Shown here: positions 1-5,770 of the stretch, piece by piece
Layout of the letters: each line of letters begins with the position of its first letter
How positions within the stretch are numbered: the first letter of the stretch is position 1
Virus record (IMG/VR): IMGVR_UViG_2778261673_000003
Source of the DNA: a virus
Taxonomy: Duplodnaviria; Heunggongvirae; Uroviricota; Caudoviricetes
Length of the DNA stretch: 5,770 bases
Strand: one strand, 5' to 3'
Program-made: the position numbers and the translations under genes
The notes under the pieces: generated by a model
Told to the model about the DNA's origin: nothing
Seen by the model: the letters and a program-made list of their open reading frames with translations, nothing else
Database searches by the model: none

Positions 1-199
1 GTGGCGGCCTCAGTCCGGAACAATTTGAAAACAAGAACCTCGCTTAGGCCTGTGTCCATATTACGTGGGTAGGATCATCCCTGGTGTGCGGCGTGTTCCC
101 CAACCAGGATGGAACGTTCACTGCCATGACGTATACCAAAAGCAAAACATTTAAAACCGAAACTGGTGCGCGCCGATGGTTGGAGAAGCACACAGTAAG

Positions 200-688
200 C
201 TAACGATTAAAACGTCTACTCCTGCTGTTCCAGAATAACTTCATAAAATGGGAGTATTTTTCGGTGACGAGATAATAAGAACAGTTTGCGCTATCACTCT
301 GATGTTGAATGATGCCCTTCCGTTCTAATTTTTTCATAACCGGGTTACGGCAAGGAGAAGTGATAATAAGATTTCCTGTTTTAAGGAAATCTTTAAATAC
401 AGCGATTTCTTTCTCAGATAAACGAAGCAATACTCGTTGCTCTGGTAGTAATGAATAATGCTTTTGAATATGTGCTCGCAATCTTGAGAAGGAAATGGCG
501 ACCACGAAAGAAAAGGCAAAAACGATAATCTGAAAGAGCCAAGGTATTTCAGTATAAGCATTGAATGCGACAGTAAACTCTTTCGGTATCAGCCAGAGAG
601 TGAGACCAAAAATGATAATCGTATACATAAGTCTTTCGAGTGGCTCGTTAGCAAAAAGTTTCAACAATGGAGTAAATGCATCCAACAT
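200..688 (-). CDS. sieB: Superinfection exclusion protein B (162 aa), predicted inner-membrane protein
   Basis: The 203-aa track ORF (200..811) contains MLDAFTPLLKLFANEPLERLMYTIIIFGLTLWLIP... from its 42nd codon. ATG is the reverse complement of 686..688 and the stop is TAG (reverse complement of 200..202). Two hydrophobic stretches (YTIIIFGLTLWLIP, IPWLFQIIVFAFSFVVAISF) fit a membrane protein. Start chosen to match the 162-aa SieB length I recall; the upstream Shine-Dalgarno (GAGAG) is weak. Confidence 0.8.
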   Translation of the reverse strand: MLDAFTPLLKLFANEPLERLMYTIIIFGLTLWLIPKEFTVAFNAYTEIPWLFQIIVFAFSFVVAISFSRLRAHIQKHYSLLPEQRVLLRLSEKEIAVFKDFLKTGNLIITSPCRNPVMKKLERKGIIQHQSDSANCSYYLVTEKYSHFMKLFWNSRSRRFNR

Positions 689-906
689 ATCAATAACTCT
701 CAACTGTAAGGGTATTGAAATGTTAACACAAGCTCTCGCTGTAGGGGTATAGCCGAGACCACCGAAGCCCGGAGGTGGTGAAATAAAACCGGGCACAACA
801 CGAAGGCGCATTTCCGATATCCATAAAGAGTCGGTCTTGTCTGTTAAATTTAAATGGTGGGAGTGCGCCTCCGGTTGTAAATAACGACATTGCTGTGTGT
901 AGTCCT

Positions 907-954
907 GGCGGCATCAGTTTTTTTCTTGAAGTTCGGCTGATGTCCGCCCTTTTT
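907..954 (+). terminator. Terminator-like hairpin upstream of kilR: 11-bp GC-rich stem with one bulge, followed by CUUUUU
   Basis: GGCGGCATCAG (907..917) pairs with CTGATGTCCGCC (937..948), with T943 bulged; the loop is 19 nt and contains a T7 run (918..924); CTTTTT follows at 949..954. Read directly from the sequence. The long loop and short U-tract make this non-canonical. Confidence 0.3.
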
Positions 955-1129
955 AAAGTGAATTTTGTGATGCGGTGAATGCGGCTAAGCGCACGTGGCA
1001 CAGTTAAAAGTCATGTTAGTCCTTATTGGTTTGGGTGGGAAAGCCGACTGTAATTGTTAACTGGTTGCAGTCACCTGGAGGCACCAGGCACCGCATCAAC
1101 AAAGTTCATTTGTAAAAATGGAGATAATT

Positions 1130-1351
1130 ATGATTGCACATCACTTCGGAACTGATGAAATACCACGTCAGTGTGTGACTCCTGGCGATTATGTTCTTCA
1201 TGAAGGCCGGACATATATTGCCTCGGCAAACAATATTAAAAAGCGAAAACTATATATTCGTAACCTGACCACAAAAACATGCATTACTGACCGCATGATT
1301 AAAGTCTTCCTCGGTCGTGATGGTTTACCTGTAAAGGCGGAGTCATGGTGA
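1130..1351 (+). CDS. kilR: Killing protein KilR (73 aa), FtsZ / cell-division inhibitor
   Basis: Translation [40 protein letters not shown]...ESW. GGAG at 1120..1123 lies 6 nt before ATG 1130. The track ORF start at 1118 (MEII...) has no ribosome-binding site and is rejected. Stop TGA at 1349..1351. Confidence 0.85.
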
Positions 1352-1521
1352 TGACTAAGAAAATAAAATGTGCTTACCACCTTTGCAAAAAAGACGTTGA
1401 AGAAAGCAAAGCTATTGAAAGAATGCTTCACTTCATGCACGGGATTTTATCAAAAGACGAACCGAGAAAATATTGCAGTGAAGCTTGTGCCGAAAAAGAC
1501 CAGATGGCACATGAACTTTAA
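1351..1521 (+). CDS. ydaE: Small Cys4 metal-binding protein YdaE (56 aa)
   Basis: Found by manual translation; it is below the size cut-off of the ORF track. [59 protein letters not shown] 1351..1353 overlaps the kilR stop (TGATG). GGAG at 1339..1342 lies 8 nt upstream. Four Cys residues (C7, C12, C42, C46). Stop TAA at 1519..1521. Confidence 0.7.
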   Translation: MTKKIKCAYHLCKKDVEESKAIERMLHFMHGILSKDEPRKYCSEACAEKDQMAHEL

Positions 1522-1595
1522 TTAATTGACTATTCGAAACTGAATTTATGCCAGAAATGGCAGGTATTCGCTCAACCTTAATTAAGGAGAAAAAC

Positions 1596-1871
1596 ATGAT
1601 TACCAATTATGAAGCCACTGTTGTAACTACCGATGACATTGTTCACGAGGTGAATCTGGAAGGAAAGCGCATTGGCTACGTAATTAAAACAGAAAATAAA
1701 GAAACCCCATTCACTGTGGTTGATATCGATGGTCCATCAGGCAACGTAAAAACACTTGATGAAGGTGTCAAAAAAATGTGCCTGGTGCATATCGGAAAGA
1801 ATCTGCCCGCAGAAAAAAAAGCCGAATTTCTGGCAACTCTAATTGCAATGAAATTAAAAGATGAAATCTGA
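1596..1871 (+). CDS. racC: RacC (91 aa), function unknown
   Basis: MITNYEATVVTTDDIVHEVNLEGKRIGYVIKTENKETPFTVVDIDGPSGNVK...KLKDEI. Strong Shine-Dalgarno AAGGAGA (1584..1590) 5 nt before ATG 1596. The track ORF start at 1548 has no ribosome-binding site. Stop TGA at 1869..1871. Confidence 0.85.
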   Translation: MITNYEATVVTTDDIVHEVNLEGKRIGYVIKTENKETPFTVVDIDGPSGNVKTLDEGVKKMCLVHIGKNLPAEKKAEFLATLIAMKLKDEI

Positions 1872-1876
1872 AAGAA

Positions 1877-1901
1877 ATAGCCTGCGTATGGCGCAGGCTA
1901 T
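1877..1901. other. Perfect 10-bp stem / 5-nt loop hairpin in the racC-recE intergenic region
   Basis: ATAGCCTGCG (1877..1886), loop TATGG, CGCAGGCTAT (1892..1901); every pair checked. No U-tract follows on the + strand. On the - strand the hairpin is followed by UUCUUUC (reverse complement of 1870..1876). Confidence 0.4.
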
Positions 1902-1972
1902 GAACAGTGTGTATCCGGCAAGATCATTCACTGAACAAAACGAATTTTAATCTGAGTTGAGGTTAAAAAACA

Positions 1973-4573
1973 ATGAGCACAAAACCACTCTTCCTGTTAC
2001 GGAAAGCGAAAAAATCATCCGGTGAACCTGACGTCGTCCTGTGGGCAAGCAACGATTTTGAATCGACCTGTGCCACTCTGGACTACCTGATCGTTAAGTC
2101 AGGTAAAAAACTGAGCAGCTATTTTAAAGCTGTTGCCACGAATTTTCCTGTCGTTAATGACCTGCCCGCTGAAGGTGAGATCGATTTTACCTGGAGTGAA
2201 CGCTATCAACTCAGCAAAGACTCCATGACATGGGAACTAAAACCGGGAGCAGCACCAGACAACGCTCACTATCAAGGCAATACCAACGTCAACGGCGAAG
2301 ACATGACTGAGATTGAGGAGAATATGCTACTCCCAATTTCTGGCCAGGAACTGCCCATTCGTTGGCTTGCTCAACACGGCAGCGAAAAACCGGTAACGCA
2401 CGTTTCACGCGACGGACTCCAGGCATTACACATTGCTCGGGCTGAAGAACTACCGGCTGTTACTGCCCTGGCTGTTTCCCACAAAACCAGCCTGCTCGAC
2501 CCGCTGGAAATTCGCGAACTCCACAAACTGGTTCGTGACACTGACAAAGTTTTCCCTAATCCTGGTAATTCAAACCTGGGACTGATAACTGCTTTTTTCG
2601 AAGCATACCTGAACGCTGACTACACCGATCGAGGACTGCTGACAAAAGAGTGGATGAAGGGTAATCGTGTTTCACACATCACTCGCACGGCTTCCGGTGC
2701 TAATGCTGGCGGCGGAAACCTCACCGATCGCGGCGAAGGTTTCGTACACGATCTGACGTCACTGGCGCGCGACGTAGCCACTGGCGTACTGGCCCGTTCA
2801 ATGGATCTGGACATCTATAACCTTCATCCGGCACACGCTAAACGCATTGAGGAAATTATCGCTGAAAATAAACCGCCCTTTTCTGTTTTCCGCGACAAAT
2901 TCATCACCATGCCTGGCGGGTTGGATTATTCCCGCGCCATCGTGGTTGCGTCCGTAAAAGAAGCACCAATTGGGATCGAGGTCATCCCCGCGCACGTCAC
3001 TGAATATCTGAACAAAGTACTGACTGAAACCGATCATGCCAACCCTGATCCGGAAATCGTGGATATTGCCTGCGGTCGCTCCTCTGCCCCGATGCCGCAG
3101 CGAGTAACAGAAGAAGGAAAACAGGATGATGAAGAAAAACCGCAACCATCTGGAACAACGGCAGTTGAACAGGGAGAGGCTGAAACAATGGAACCGGACG
3201 CAACTGAACATCATCAGGACACGCAGCCGCTGGATGCTCAGTCACAGGTAAATTCTGTTGATGCGAAATATCAGGAACTGCGGGCAGAACTCCATGAAGC
3301 CCGGAAAAACATTCCATCAAAAAATCCTGTCGATGCCGATAAATTGCTTGCTGCATCACGTGGTGAATTTGTTGACGGAATTAGCGACCCGAACGATCCG
3401 AAATGGGTAAAGGGGATCCAGACTCGCGATTGTGTGTACCAGAACCAGCCAGAAACGGAAAAAACCAGCCCAGATATGAATCAACCTGAGCCAGTAGTGC
3501 AACAGGAACCGGAAATAGCCTGCAATGCCTGCGGCCAGACTGGCGGGGATAACTGCCCTGACTGTGGTGCGGTGATGGGCGACGCAACATACCAGGAAAC
3601 ATTCGATGAAGAGAGTCAGGTTGAAGCTAAGGAAAATGATCCGGAGGAAATGGAAGGCGCTGAACATCCGCACAATGAGAATGCTGGCAGCGATCCGCAT
3701 CGCGATTGCAGTGATGAAACTGGCGAAGTCGCAGATCCCGTAATCGTAGAAGACATAGAGCCAGGTATTTATTACGGAATTTCGAATGAGAATTACCACG
3801 CGGGTCCCGGTATCAGTAAGTCTCAGCTCGATGACATTGCTGATACTCCGGCACTATATTTGTGGCGTAAAAATGCCCCCGTGGACACCACAAAGACAAA
3901 AACGCTCGATTTAGGAACTGCTTTCCACTGCCGGGTACTTGAACCGGAAGAATTCAGTAACCGCTTTATCGTAGCACCTGAATTTAACCGCCGTACAAAC
4001 GCCGGAAAAGAAGAAGAGAAAGCGTTTCTGATGGAATGCGCAAGCACAGGAAAAACGGTTATCACTGCGGAAGAAGGCCGGAAAATTGAACTCATGTATC
4101 AAAGCGTTATGGCTTTGCCGCTGGGGCAATGGCTTGTTGAAAGCGCCGGACACGCTGAATCATCAATTTACTGGGAAGATCCTGAAACAGGAATTTTATG
4201 TCGGTGCCGTCCGGACAAAATTATCCCTGAATTTCACTGGATCATGGACGTGAAAACTACGGCGGATATTCAACGATTCAAAACCGCTTATTACGACTAC
4301 CGCTATCACGTTCAGGATGCATTCTACAGTGACGGTTATGAAGCACAGTTTGGAGTGCAGCCAACTTTCGTTTTTCTGGTTGCCAGCACAACTATTGAAT
4401 GCGGACGTTATCCGGTTGAAATTTTCATGATGGGCGAAGAAGCAAAACTGGCAGGTCAACAGGAATATCACCGCAATCTGCGAACCCTGTCTGACTGCCT
4501 GAATACCGATGAATGGCCAGCTATTAAGACATTATCACTGCCCCGCTGGGCTAAGGAATATGCAAATGACTAA
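1973..4573 (+). CDS. recE: Exodeoxyribonuclease VIII (RecE, 866 aa); C-terminal PD-(D/E)XK 5'->3' dsDNA exonuclease domain
   Basis: Uninterrupted 866-codon [25 protein letters not shown]...[14 protein letters not shown] at 1959..1962 lies 10 nt before ATG 1973. Motif RPD...IMDVK puts Asp at codon 748 and D-V-K at codons 759-761, consistent with the RecE catalytic residues as I recall them. The central part is a D/E-rich low-complexity region. Confidence 0.95.
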
Positions 4574-5375
4574 GCAACCACCAATCGCAAAAGCCGATCT
4601 GCAAAAAACTCAGGGAAACCGTGCACCAGCAGCAGTTAAAAATAGCGACGTGATTAGTTTTATTAACCAGCCATCAATGAAAGAGCAACTGGCAGCAGCT
4701 CTTCCACGCCATATGACGGCTGAACGTATGATCCGTATCGCCACCACAGAAATTCGTAAAGTTCCGGCGTTAGGAAACTGTGACACTATGAGTTTTGTCA
4801 GTGCGATCGTACAGTGTTCACAGCTCGGACTTGAGCCAGGTAGCGCCCTCGGTCATGCATATTTACTGCCTTTTGGTAATAAAAACGAAAAGAGCGGTAA
4901 AAAGAACGTTCAGCTAATCATTGGCTATCGCGGCATGATTGATCTGGCTCGCCGTTCTGGTCAAATCGCCAGCCTGTCAGCCCGTGTTGTCCGTGAAGGT
5001 GACGAGTTTAGCTTCGAATTTGGCCTTGATGAAAAGTTAATACACCGCCCGGGAGAAAACGAAGATGCCCCGGTTACCCACGTCTATGCTGTCGCAAGAC
5101 TGAAAGACGGAGGTACTCAGTTTGAAGTTATGACGCGCAAACAGATTGAGCTGGTGCGCAGCCTGAGTAAAGCTGGTAATAACGGGCCGTGGGTAACTCA
5201 CTGGGAAGAAATGGCAAAGAAAACGGCTATTCGTCGCCTGTTCAAATATCTGCCCGTATCAATTGAGATCCAGCGTGCAGTATCAATGGATGAAAAGGAA
5301 CCACTGACAATCGATCCTGCAGATTCCTCTGTATTAACCGGGGAATACAGTGTAATCGATAATTCAGAGGAATAA
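4566..5375 (+). CDS. recT: Recombinase RecT (269 aa), single-strand annealing protein of the RecT/Red-beta family
   Basis: [36 protein letters not shown]...VIDNSEE. AAGGA at 4553..4557 lies 8 nt before ATG 4566. The start overlaps the recE stop by 8 nt (ATGACTAA), implying translational coupling. The in-frame upstream ATG at 4509 used by the ORF track has no ribosome-binding site and lies inside recE. Confidence 0.95.
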
Positions 5376-5382
5376 TTCAGCC

Positions 5383-5403
5383 TGGCGGTGTAATGCACCG
5401 CCA
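5383..5403. other. 8-bp stem / 5-nt loop hairpin between recT and ralR
   Basis: TGGCGGTG (5383..5390), loop TAATG, CACCGCCA (5396..5403). A T6 run (5414..5419) begins about 10 nt downstream, so this is not a canonical intrinsic terminator. Confidence 0.3.
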
Positions 5404-5431
5404 ACTTGAAATATTTTTTATGAGAAAAATT

Positions 5432-5626
5432 ATGAGATATGACAATGTTAAACCATGTCCATTTTGTGGTTGTCCATCAGTAACGGTGAAAGCCATTTCA
5501 GGATATTACCGAGCGAAGTGTAACGGATGCGAATCCCGAACCGGTTATGGTGGAAGTGAAAAAGAAGCACTCGAAAGATGGAATAAACGAACCACTGGAA
5601 ATAATAATGGAGGTGTTCATGTATAA
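5432..5626 (+). CDS. ralR: Restriction alleviation protein Lar / RalR (64 aa), Cys-rich zinc-ribbon-like; reported as a DNase toxin of a type I toxin-antitoxin pair
   Basis: MRYDNVKPCPFCGCPSVTVKAISGYYRAKCNGCESRTGYGGSEKEALERWNKRTTGNNNGGVHV, with Cys at positions 9, 12, 14, 31 and 34. Start taken at ATG 5432 to give the 64-aa length I recall. The track ORF begins at ATG 5393, which sits inside the upstream hairpin; a further in-frame ATG lies at 5420. The Shine-Dalgarno is weak. Stop TAA at 5624..5626. Confidence 0.75.
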   Translation: MRYDNVKPCPFCGCPSVTVKAISGYYRAKCNGCESRTGYGGSEKEALERWNKRTTGNNNGGVHV

Positions 5627-5770
5627 AATTACCGCCACTATTGAAAAGGAAGGTGGCACTCCTACTAACTGGACAAGATATTCAAAATCTAAAGGAAGAT
5701 GCGAATAAGCAGGTCATTTCTTCCCAAGCTGACTCGCTGATTAAAATTTCGCGGATCTGGGCCGATTTTT
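5611..5770 (-). ncRNA. ralA: Possible location of the RalA antitoxin sRNA (antisense, overlapping the 3' end of ralR); position inferred and partial
   Basis: From my recollection of the literature, RalR is neutralised by a small RNA of about 180 nt with 16 nt of complementarity to ralR mRNA. I cannot identify its promoter or terminator in the sequence, and its 5' end would lie beyond the window edge. Coordinates are a guess. Confidence 0.2.
5619..5708 (+). CDS. Hypothetical 29-aa ORF with a strong Shine-Dalgarno, overlapping the ralR stop; may be spurious or the 5' part of a downstream gene
   Basis: Consensus GGAGG at 5609..5613 lies 5 nt before ATG 5619; the ATG overlaps the ralR stop (ATGTATAA). 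Translation MYKITATIEKEGGTPTNWTRYSKSKGRCE, stop TAA 5706..5708. It is below the size cut-off of the ORF track. A different frame stays open from 5608 to the window end (...QDIQNLKEDANKQVISSQADSLIKISRIWADF) but has no ATG. Confidence 0.25.
   Translation: MYKITATIEKEGGTPTNWTRYSKSKGRCE

What the first reader, a model, noticed from the sequence alone, without database searches (positions are those of the whole stretch)
5383..5770. ralR toxin region: hairpin upstream, possible antisense antitoxin RNA and a strongly SD-led small ORF at the window edge
RalR/Lar is a Cys-rich (CxxCxC ... CxxC) 64-aa protein reported both to alleviate restriction and to act as a DNase toxin held in check by an antisense small RNA. 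In the sequence there is an 8-bp hairpin (5383..5403) that contains the alternative upstream ATG 5393. There is also a consensus GGAGG driving a 29-codon ORF (5619..5708) that overlaps the ralR stop, and a second frame that stays open to the window end without an ATG. Which of these is real (small protein, start of the next gene after a frame shift, or antisense sRNA template) cannot be decided from the window alone.
Basis: partly seen in the sequence, partly recalled or inferred. Interest (0 to 1): 0.45.

Follow-up and report, generated by a model that had tools for sequence, protein, structure and literature searches.

The report
IS-truncated rcbA/RalA beside intact ralR
This is the well-known ralR toxin / RalA antitoxin-RNA / rcbA corner of the E. 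coli Rac prophage, except that in this strain an ISKpn26 insertion sequence has cut the downstream gene and the antitoxin RNA gene in two, which explains the odd "29-codon ORF" at the window edge.

Summary
Window 78-5693 is Rac prophage DNA. Positions 5300-5693 are 100% identical to E. coli K-12 and carry recT, an intact ralR (5432-5626) and the start of rcbA/ydaC (ATG 5619, GGAGG at 5609).

At 5693|5694 the Rac sequence stops. The last 77 nt are the terminal inverted repeat and end of an IS5-family ISKpn26 element. The "29-codon ORF" is therefore rcbA codons 1-25 fused to four codons and a TAA from the IS. The "second open frame" simply runs across the junction. There is no frameshift.

The antitoxin sRNA RalA (179 nt in K-12, antisense inside rcbA, equivalent to window 5625-5803) is cut at nt 110/111. 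Only its 3' 69 nt with the terminator remain next to ralR. Its 16-nt anti-ralR box, 5' end and promoter lie beyond the IS, out of view.

This junction is absent from 5,426 complete E. coli genomes and four other collections. In 1,900 of 1,922 genomes that carry the segment, ralR and rcbA/ralA are intact together.

Side result: DUF1187/rcbA homologs in other genera are under purifying selection and lack ralR and RalA, so rcbA is a real protein gene. The locus is already known; this is a rare IS-disrupted allele of it.

The parts
4566..5375 (+). recT (recombination protein RecT), upstream neighbour; stop TAA at 5373-5375
   Evidence: K-12 annotation L001 767-1576 maps to the window by +3799. Window 4300-5693 differs from K-12 at 1 of 1394 positions.
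5383..5403 (+). GC-rich hairpin 8 nt after the recT stop: 9 pairs, loop AAT, containing the non-conserved ATG 5393. It can extend to 5376-5410, followed by AUAUUUUUU.
   Evidence: -15.9 kcal/mol, z = -4.35. The stem is kept with a different loop in ETEC1716 and is identical in EC14. Homology to ETEC1716 starts exactly at 5383 (H14). The simple terminator scan does not call it.
5432..5626 (+). ralR (lar), intact: a 64-aa Cys-rich toxin / restriction-alleviation protein. An in-frame ATG at 5420 is an alternative start.
   Evidence: 100% identical to K-12 ralR. Pfam PF14354 at 53.5 bits. ATG at -12 or -15 is conserved in frame in all variants; the annotated start is TTG in EC14.
5554..5569 (+). 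16-nt box in ralR mRNA (AAGTGAAAAAGAAGCA) that RalA pairs with; intact here
   Evidence: position. PMC4041452 for its role and the M1/M2 mutants.
5609..5613 (+). Shine-Dalgarno GGAGG of rcbA, inside the 3' end of ralR
   Evidence: The same SD and the ATG overlapping the ralR stop are found in K-12, E. ruysiae, ETEC1716 and EC14.
5619..5693 (+). rcbA (ydaC, DUF1187) codons 1-25: the truncated 5' part of a 69-codon gene
   Evidence: K-12 rcbA is L001 1820-2029. Pfam PF06688 at 51.1 bits covers profile positions 1-24 of 61 only. Alignment with K-12 breaks after 5693.
5694..5708 (+). Fusion tail of the 29-codon ORF: 4 codons (GRCE) and TAA, read from the IS inverted repeat
   Evidence: translation; IR alignment.
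5625..5693 (-). RalA remnant: nt 111-179 of the 179-nt antitoxin sRNA. It includes the terminator stem-loop (arms 5653-5658 and 5633-5638) and the UUUU tail. It lacks the 16-nt anti-ralR box (RalA nt 63-78), the 5' stem-loop and the promoter.
   Evidence: Rfam RF02694: 63.3 bits in the window, with only the 3' part aligning confidently, against 225.1 bits full length in K-12. Coordinates. RalA anatomy from PMC4041452.
5694..5770 (-). Terminal 77 nt of an IS5-family ISKpn26 element. The 16-bp IR GGAAGATGCGAATAAG is at 5694-5709. The transposase gene would lie beyond the window on the minus strand, in the same direction as RalA.
   Evidence: annotated ISKpn26-family transposase next to the same sequence; 77/77 identity in 8 listed records, 5,597 places in 2,370 genomes; 1196-bp copies with YTAR duplications.

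Best explanation
The region is the ralR-rcbA/ralA end of the Rac prophage recombination operon, in a strain where a 1.2-kb ISKpn26 (IS5 family) element has inserted into rcbA at codon 25/26. RalA is encoded antisense inside rcbA, so the same insertion cuts RalA at nt 110/111.

Shown here:
- ralR, its SD-less start region, the upstream hairpin and the rcbA SD and start are identical to K-12.
- The 29-codon ORF is an rcbA'-IS fusion.
- Only the RalA terminator module (its 3' 69 nt) is still next to ralR.
- The 16-nt pairing box, the 5' end and the promoter of RalA are not in the window.

Inferred from published work on K-12 (PMC4041452): RalA normally blocks ralR translation by Hfq-dependent pairing of its nt 63-78 with ralR codons about 41-46. 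A construct ending at position 289 of ralR-ralA has no antitoxin activity. The Rac DNA contiguous with ralR here ends at position 262, so it cannot supply the antitoxin either.

If the event is a simple insertion, the RalA 5' half sits about 1.2 kb away. It would be transcribed into the IS in the transposase-sense direction without its own terminator or Hfq module, so antitoxin function is probably reduced or lost. RcbA protein function is lost as well. The cell presumably tolerates this because chromosomal ralR is poorly expressed; the K-12 rcbA/ydaC deletion mutant is viable and shows more chromosome breaks.

The hairpin at 5383-5403 is a conserved structure at the 5' boundary of the ralR-rcbA module. 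It most likely acts as a partial terminator or an RNA-stabilising stem between recT and ralR. It is not part of a longer RalR protein.
For: - Identity to K-12 up to 5693, and annotation as ralR / rcbA.
- IS identity.
- RalA mapping and truncation.
- RalA mechanism and the G289del result: PMC4041452.
- rcbA is a real, separately conserved protein gene. Homologs at 47-66% identity in Izhakiella, Buttiauxella and Symbiopectobacterium keep intact 62-75-aa ORFs with their own SD. Third-position changes dominate, and dN/dS is about 0.15 (L012/L017: 0.05/0.325; L017/L019: 0.237/1.52). None has a ralR homolog upstream or an Rfam RalA match.
- Rarity: the junction was not found in any collection, and 1,900 of 1,922 genomes keep the segment intact.
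- Hairpin conservation and loss of ATG 5393.
Against: - The far side of the IS is not visible. The window ends 77 nt into it and is probably a short-read contig bounded by repeats (IS3 end at 1-77). Simple insertion, IS-mediated deletion and rearrangement cannot be told apart.
- The flank reads CTAAA|GGAAG. It is 1 nt off the YTAR 4-bp target seen at three of four complete copies examined, including both copies of this exact variant.
- No expression data exist for this strain. Loss of antitoxin function is inferred from plasmid experiments in K-12.
- A RalA 5' fragment made elsewhere could still act in trans.
- The hairpin shows no compensatory changes, only an unchanged stem with a variable loop, and it fails the simple terminator scan.
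Confidence: 0.88

Rival explanations
1. The 29-codon ORF is a genuine small-protein gene in its own right. The strong GGAGG and the coupling to the ralR stop drive translation of a 29-aa peptide that has a function.
For: The SD, spacing and ATG are optimal and conserved, so the peptide probably is translated whenever ralR mRNA is made. It retains the most conserved N-terminal DUF1187 motif, MYKITATI..GG..W.
Against: The ORF ends only because of the IS inverted repeat. This junction exists in none of 5,426 complete genomes or the other collections. All intact homologs are 62-75 aa, and the conserved LT..ECEK...KEAGK...F.C part is missing here.
Confidence: 0.04
2. The downstream region is only an sRNA template: ydaC/rcbA is not a protein gene (the view of Guo et al. 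2014), and the ORF and its SD are incidental.
For: PMC4041452: no YdaC protein was seen by SDS-PAGE or western blot. Start-codon and stop-codon mutants of ydaC still neutralised RalR. RalA made from the opposite strand is sufficient.
Against: DUF1187 ORFs are conserved at 47-66% amino-acid identity across genera, with dN/dS about 0.15-0.2 and saturated synonymous sites. They sit in loci that have neither ralR nor any RalA match. Pfam PF06688 matches at 51 bits. The experiments of Guo et al. show that the protein is not the antitoxin; they do not show that it is not made.
Confidence: 0.1
3. A frameshift or sequencing error splits the next gene, so that the open frame 5608-5770 is its continuation.
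For: A frame stays open to the window end.
Against: From 5694 onward the DNA is 77/77 identical to ISKpn26 ends found at thousands of unrelated sites. It shows no similarity to the K-12 rcbA continuation. The open frame has no start codon and crosses the junction.
Confidence: 0.01
4. The junction is not a simple insertion. It is the edge of an IS-mediated deletion or rearrangement that removed the distal rcbA/ralA, xisR and intR, leaving ralR as a true orphan toxin gene.
For: The flank CTAAA|GGAAG is 1 nt off the canonical YTAR target. The fragment is bounded by two different IS ends. IS-associated deletions at rcbA do occur: in strain BS-01, IS1 abuts the distal rcbA and ralR is gone.
Against: Nothing in the window distinguishes this from a simple insertion. 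Short-read contigs always break at IS copies.
Confidence: 0.25

Closest known systems
RalR/RalA type I toxin-antitoxin system of the E. coli K-12 Rac prophage (Guo et al. 2014, PMC4041452; Rfam RF02694; Pfam PF14354 Lar_restr_allev)
   Same: ralR is nucleotide-identical to K-12, and its 16-nt target box is intact. The RalA terminator module sits in the same position and strand.
   Different: RalA is interrupted at nt 110/111. The pairing box, 5' stem-loop and promoter are displaced by at least 1.2 kb or lost. The Rfam score is 63 bits against a gathering score of 170.
rcbA / ydaC, 'double-strand break reduction protein RcbA', Pfam DUF1187 (PF06688)
   Same: Same SD, same ATG overlapping the ralR stop, and identical first 25 codons.
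   Different: Truncated after codon 25 of 69 and fused to GRCE-stop from the IS.
ISKpn26 (IS5 family, 1196 bp, 16-bp IRs, 4-bp YTAR target duplication)
   Same: The 77 terminal nucleotides are identical to complete copies that carry an annotated ISKpn26-family transposase.
   Different: Only one end is visible. The IR carries a G-to-A change at position 6, shared with a minority variant (14 records at 99% identity or more). The flank is 1 nt off the usual target.
pCA24N-ralR-ralA-G289del, an engineered truncation in Guo et al. 2014
   Same: ralR followed by a 3'-truncated ydaC/ralA segment that lacks the RalA 16-nt box. That construct lost all antitoxin activity.
   Different: The natural allele here is shorter, ending at position 262 rather than 289. 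It is chromosomal, and the missing half may still exist beyond the IS.

Membership tests
RalR / Lar (Pfam PF14354 Lar_restr_allev) | Profile match above the curated cut-off, covering the Cys-rich zinc-ribbon-like core | tested here: met
   53.5 bits against a cut-off of 28.6, residues 5-54. 100% nucleotide identity to K-12 ralR.
RalR / Lar (Pfam PF14354 Lar_restr_allev) | Non-specific DNase toxicity and restriction alleviation | not testable with these tools
   Known only from experiments on the identical K-12 protein (PMC4041452).
RalA sRNA (Rfam RF02694) | Full-length covariance-model match at or above the gathering score (170 bits) | tested here: not met
   63.3 bits, with only the 3' part aligned confidently. 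K-12 scores 225.1 bits. Diverged E. coli loci score 215-220 bits.
RalA sRNA (Rfam RF02694) | 16-nt box complementary to ralR mRNA (RalA nt 63-78) | tested here: not met
   AGGTAAAAAAGAAGCA is absent from the window. Its K-12 equivalent would be 5726-5741, beyond the junction at 5693.
RalA sRNA (Rfam RF02694) | Rho-independent terminator (GC stem, 14-nt loop, U tail) at the 3' end | tested here: met
   Arms at 5653-5658 and 5633-5638, with the tail running to 5625; identical to K-12.
Type I toxin-antitoxin locus | Toxin ORF together with an adjacent antisense RNA gene able to pair with the toxin mRNA | tested here: inconclusive
   The toxin ORF is intact. The part of the RNA gene that does the pairing is not contiguous and not in the window. 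It may or may not exist beyond the IS.
DUF1187 / RcbA (Pfam PF06688) | Profile match above the cut-off | tested here: met
   51.1 bits against a cut-off of 20.7, but only profile positions 1-24 of 61.
DUF1187 / RcbA (Pfam PF06688) | Full-length ORF of about 62-75 aa that includes the conserved LT..ECEK / KEAGK / F.C segments | tested here: not met
   The ORF stops after 29 codons, of which 25 are native.
ISKpn26 (IS5 family) | Terminal inverted repeat GGAAGGTGCGAATAAG and the adjacent end sequence | tested here: met
   15 of 16 IR positions match. 77/77 identity to the ends of complete 1196-bp copies.
ISKpn26 (IS5 family) | DDE transposase gene and a second inverted repeat | not testable with these tools
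   These lie outside the window, and the source genome was not found.
ISKpn26 (IS5 family) | 4-bp YTAR target-site duplication | tested here: inconclusive
   The flank is tCTAAa|GGAAG and only one side is visible. Matched duplications were seen at three of four complete copies: CTAA/CTAA (L003, L026) and TTAG/TTAG (L025). L002 has unmatched YTAR flanks, TTAA and CTAG.
Intrinsic (Rho-independent) terminator, for the hairpin 5383-5403 | GC-rich stem immediately followed by a U tract | tested here: inconclusive
   The stem is strong. The T run starts 13 nt after the core stem and is adjacent only if the weaker extended stem 5376-5410 forms. The scan reported no terminator.

The most novel reading that the evidence does not exclude
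The ISKpn26 insertion has rewired, rather than simply broken, the type I TA system. The transposase gene and RalA point the same way. Transcripts leaving the IS would therefore acquire the RalA Hfq/terminator module, or, on read-through, become a fully complementary cis-antisense RNA across ralR. That would replace a 16-nt trans-type antitoxin with an IS-driven antisense one. Alternatively, this strain carries a truly unguarded DNase toxin gene and shows a mutator or DNA-break phenotype.
Probability: 0.06. Interest if true: 0.45.

Novelty: already known. Interest (0 to 1): 0.17.

Why it matters
The main value is clean annotation. The window-edge ORF should be labelled as rcbA interrupted by ISKpn26, and RalA as disrupted; neither is a new small protein or a frameshifted gene.

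Two modest points go beyond that. First, the strain is a natural near-equivalent of the engineered ralA truncation that abolishes antitoxin activity, while the DNase toxin gene remains intact. If the strain can be identified, it could show whether chromosomal ralR is harmful without RalA and RcbA. Second, the comparative data show purifying selection on DUF1187 in genera that lack ralR and RalA. [quoted passage not shown] It also places the RalA pairing box on the conserved KEAG codons of that protein, so the rcbA chromosome-break phenotype and the RalA antitoxin phenotype still need to be separated genetically.

Tried and rejected
- Exact-junction searches found nothing: GTDB species representatives, JGI metagenomes, PLSDB plasmids, INPHARED phages and 5,426 complete E. 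coli genomes. The source strain and the far side of the IS remain unknown.
- The frameshift reading was rejected, because the downstream DNA is IS sequence and not rcbA.
- A longer RalR starting at ATG 5393 was rejected. That ATG is lost in ETEC1716, and it sits in the hairpin with no SD.
- The hairpin could not be established as a canonical intrinsic terminator: the scan was negative and there is no covariation, only a variable loop.
- I looked for an outward sigma-70 promoter in ISKpn26 and in the last 77 nt and found none.
- The partial hit in strain BS-01, which starts just across the break point, turned out to be an unrelated IS1-associated deletion that removed ralR.
- The RalA remnant and the IS-RalA chimera show no unusual stability (z = +0.37 and +0.23).
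- Felczak & Kaguni 2012 (PMC3347072) is not held. Its content is cited only through PMC4041452.
- No ribosome-profiling paper mentioning ydaC was found.

Full report
**What is in the sequence**

The window carries the Rac prophage genes in K-12 order: sieB (minus strand), kilR, ydaE, racC, recE (1973-4573), recT (4566-5375), ralR (5432-5626) and the start of rcbA/ydaC at 5619. Window 5300-5693 is 100% identical to E. coli K-12. Window 4300-5693 differs from K-12 at 1 of 1394 positions.

- The hairpin at 5383-5403 has 9 pairs including one G-U, -15.9 kcal/mol, z = -4.35, and contains ATG 5393.
- GGAGG lies at 5609-5613, 5 nt before ATG 5619.
- The ORF 5619-5708 has 29 codons and overlaps the ralR stop.
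- Another frame is open from 5608 to the window end without an ATG.
- RalR is a 64-aa protein with CPFCGC and CNGC motifs. It matches Pfam Lar_restr_allev at 53.5 bits against a cut-off of 28.6.

Similarity to Rac stops at 5693. From 5694 to 5770 the sequence matches a multi-copy element, with 5,597 places in 2,370 of 5,426 complete E. coli genomes, on both chromosomes and plasmids. In annotated records this element is the end of a 1196-bp IS5-like ISKpn26, with the transposase on the minus strand in window orientation.

The 16-bp inverted repeat here is GGAAGATGCGAATAAG. The G-to-A change at position 6 also occurs in a minority of complete copies, and eight listed records are 77/77 identical.

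K-12 reads ...AAAATCTAAACTAACGAAATCAGAATGC..., where the window reads ...AAAATCTAAA|GGAAGATGCGAATAAGCAGG....

**Consequences for the ORFs**

K-12 rcbA encodes 69 aa: MYKITATIEKEGGTPTNWTRYSKSKLTKSECEKM... The window ORF encodes MYKITATIEKEGGTPTNWTRYSKSK + GRCE + stop. It is therefore rcbA codons 1-25 fused to four codons and a TAA that lie in the IS inverted repeat. Pfam DUF1187 matches it at 51.1 bits, but only over profile positions 1-24 of 61.

The 'second frame open to the window end' crosses the Rac/IS junction and has no start codon. It is a chance open frame, not the continuation of a frameshifted gene.

**Consequences for the antitoxin RNA**

Rfam RalA (RF02694) matches K-12 full length at 225.1 bits on the minus strand of L001 1826-2004. 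That corresponds to window-equivalent 5625-5803 and lies wholly inside rcbA. In the window the score drops to 63.3 bits against a gathering score of 170, and only the 3' part aligns with confidence.

The junction at 5693 corresponds to RalA nt 111. The window therefore keeps nt 111-179, which include the terminator stem-loop (arms 5653-5658 and 5633-5638) and the U tail.

According to Guo et al. 2014 (PMC4041452):
- RalA is a 179-nt Hfq-dependent sRNA.
- Its nt 63-78 pair with a 16-nt box in the ralR coding region and block translation.
- Mutating the box abolishes antitoxin activity.
- A construct truncated after position 289 of ralR-ralA, which removes the box, 'completely abolished' antitoxin function.

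In the window the ralR target box (AAGTGAAAAAGAAGCA, 5554-5569) is intact. The RalA box would lie at K-12-equivalent 5726-5741 and is absent. The Rac DNA contiguous with ralR ends at position 262, shorter than the inactive G289del construct.

**How common is this?**

The exact junction was not found in complete E. coli genomes, PLSDB plasmids, INPHARED phages, GTDB species representatives or JGI metagenomes.

Of 1,922 complete genomes that carry the K-12 ralR-rcbA segment, 1,900 have at least 80% of it intact in one piece. Diverged E. coli and E. ruysiae versions still score 215-220 bits for RalA.

One partial hit, strain BS-01, begins just across the break point. It turned out to be a different event, in which IS1 abuts the distal rcbA and ralR has been deleted.

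**Limits**

Both window edges are exactly 77-nt IS termini. Positions 1-77 are an IS3 end, 100% identical at thousands of sites, and most strains match the window only from position 77 onward. The window is therefore probably a complete k=77 short-read contig bounded by repeats, and what lies beyond ISKpn26 is unknown. It could be a simple insertion with the other half of rcbA/ralA about 1.2 kb away, or a deletion or rearrangement.

One oddity remains. Complete ISKpn26 copies are flanked by YTAR tetranucleotides. Three of the four examined have matched 4-bp duplications, CTAA/CTAA (L003, L026) and TTAG/TTAG (L025); L002 has unmatched TTAA and CTAG. The window flank is CTAAA|GGAAG, 1 nt off.

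**Is the SD-led ORF a real gene start?**

Yes. [quoted passage not shown] Their reasons were that no product was detected and that start- and stop-codon mutants still neutralised RalR. Those experiments show that the protein is not the antitoxin.

The comparative evidence says the ORF is coding:
- Homologs at 47-66% amino-acid identity in Izhakiella, Buttiauxella and Symbiopectobacterium keep intact 62-75-aa ORFs with their own SD-like sequences.
- Between genera, third-codon-position differences dominate (for example 27/22/37 and 27/24/48 by codon position). Synonymous sites are saturated (pS 0.72-0.82), while pN is 0.25-0.40.
- Unsaturated pairs give dN/dS of about 0.15 (L012/L017: 0.05/0.325; L017/L019: 0.237/1.52).
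- These loci have no RalR homolog by tblastn and no RalA match even at E = 0.01.

So DUF1187 is a protein gene that exists independently of the TA pair, and in Rac the RalA gene is superimposed on it. The RalA box coincides with the rcbA codons for SGKKEAG, part of the conserved KEAGK motif. It is a 14/16 direct repeat of the ralR codons for SEKEA.

**The hairpin and the ralR start**

The stem GGCGGTG/CACCGCC is unchanged in the EC14 and ETEC1716 variants. ETEC1716 has a different loop (TAGCCT), which removes ATG 5393. In that strain the upstream recombinase is a different RecT-family gene, and homology to the window begins exactly at 5383 (H14).

The hairpin therefore marks the 5' edge of the ralR-rcbA module. 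It most likely works as a partial terminator or stabiliser. The simple scan does not call it a terminator, because the T run is 13 nt from the core stem, and there are no compensatory changes, so this function is inferred rather than shown.

The in-frame ATG at 5420 (-12; -15 in ETEC1716) is conserved in every variant. The annotated start is TTG in EC14. The true RalR N-terminus may therefore be 4-5 residues longer than annotated.

**Most likely mechanism and consequence**

- Shown: ralR is intact, rcbA is truncated and RalA is split.
- Inferred: RcbA function is lost. RalA antitoxin function is lost or weakened, because the pairing half, if it still exists, lacks its terminator and Hfq module and would run into the IS in the transposase-sense direction.
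- No outward sigma-70-like promoter was found in the IS, and the IS-RalA chimera has no special structure.
- Tolerance is plausible. The K-12 rcbA/ydaC deletion is viable with more chromosome breaks (Felczak & Kaguni 2012, as cited in PMC4041452), and native ralA expression is described there as low.

**Verdict**

This is a known system carrying a rare, strain-specific IS disruption. Interest is low, apart from the natural 'antitoxin knock-out' and the evidence that rcbA is a protein gene.

Noticed in passing
window 1-77: The left edge of the window is the terminal 77 nt of an IS3 element (100% identity, 12,772 places in 3,596 genomes). Rac DNA begins at about 77/78. Both edges are exactly 77-nt IS ends, so the window looks like a whole k=77 short-read contig: a Rac fragment bounded by IS3 and ISKpn26.
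   Followed up: partly
window 5689-5694: The ISKpn26 junction reads tCTAAa|GGAAG, 1 nt off the YTAR tetranucleotide that directly abuts the IR at every complete copy examined. K-12 has a second CTAA immediately after (5694-5697 equivalent). This could be an atypical target, a 5-bp duplication, or a sign of deletion or rearrangement.
   Followed up: partly
window 5420-5434: An in-frame ATG 12 nt upstream of the annotated ralR start (15 nt in ETEC1716, after a 3-nt indel) is conserved in all variants examined. In strain EC14 the annotated start position is TTG. RalR may begin at 5420 (68 aa) rather than 5432.
   Followed up: partly
window 5554-5569, and L001 1927-1942 (K-12 rcbA): The 16-nt ralR/RalA pairing boxes are a 14/16 direct repeat that encodes S-E-K-E-A in RalR and G-K-K-E-A in RcbA. 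The RcbA copy lies on the KEAGK motif, which is conserved in DUF1187 proteins of genera that have no ralR. The antitoxin seed is therefore constrained by the protein sequence on the opposite strand.
   Followed up: partly
window 894-949 and 951-1137: There are sub-threshold Rfam matches between sieB and kilR: DicF-like (39.1 bits against a gathering score of 48, E = 5e-6) and STnc100 (35.5 bits against 47, E = 4e-5), both on the plus strand just upstream of kilR.
   Followed up: no
window 5406-5433: A sigma-70-like site, TTGAAA-16-AATTAT (9/12), lies on the plus strand between the hairpin and ralR. Its -10 element overlaps the annotated ATG 5432, so a transcript from it would lack the ralR start. 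The number of such sites is no more than chance predicts (2 found, 1.3 expected).
   Followed up: no
L001 2043-2070 (K-12), window-equivalent 5842-5869, minus strand: The best promoter-like site for RalA in K-12 (TTGACG-16-AATAAT, 10/12) ends 39 nt upstream of the RalA 5' end mapped by primer extension. RalA may therefore be processed from a longer primary transcript. In the present strain this site lies beyond the IS.
   Followed up: no
L015 1743-1943, L016 1743-1936, L020 2807-3001 (Symbiopectobacterium): In several Symbiopectobacterium loci, isrK and C4 antisense RNA (a P1/P7-type immunity region) lie downstream of the DUF1187 gene: directly downstream in L015 and L016, and about 1.2 kb downstream in L020. 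Several paralogs there are truncated (L018, L020, L021) and evolve almost neutrally (dN/dS about 0.7-0.9).
   Followed up: no
L027 (E. coli BS-01) 2401-3140: This is another natural disruption of the locus. An IS1 remnant abuts the distal rcbA from K-12-equivalent 5698 onward, ralR and recT are deleted, and a RalA 5' fragment is left orphaned (83.9 bits). The assembly has many frameshifted genes, so its quality is doubtful.
   Followed up: partly
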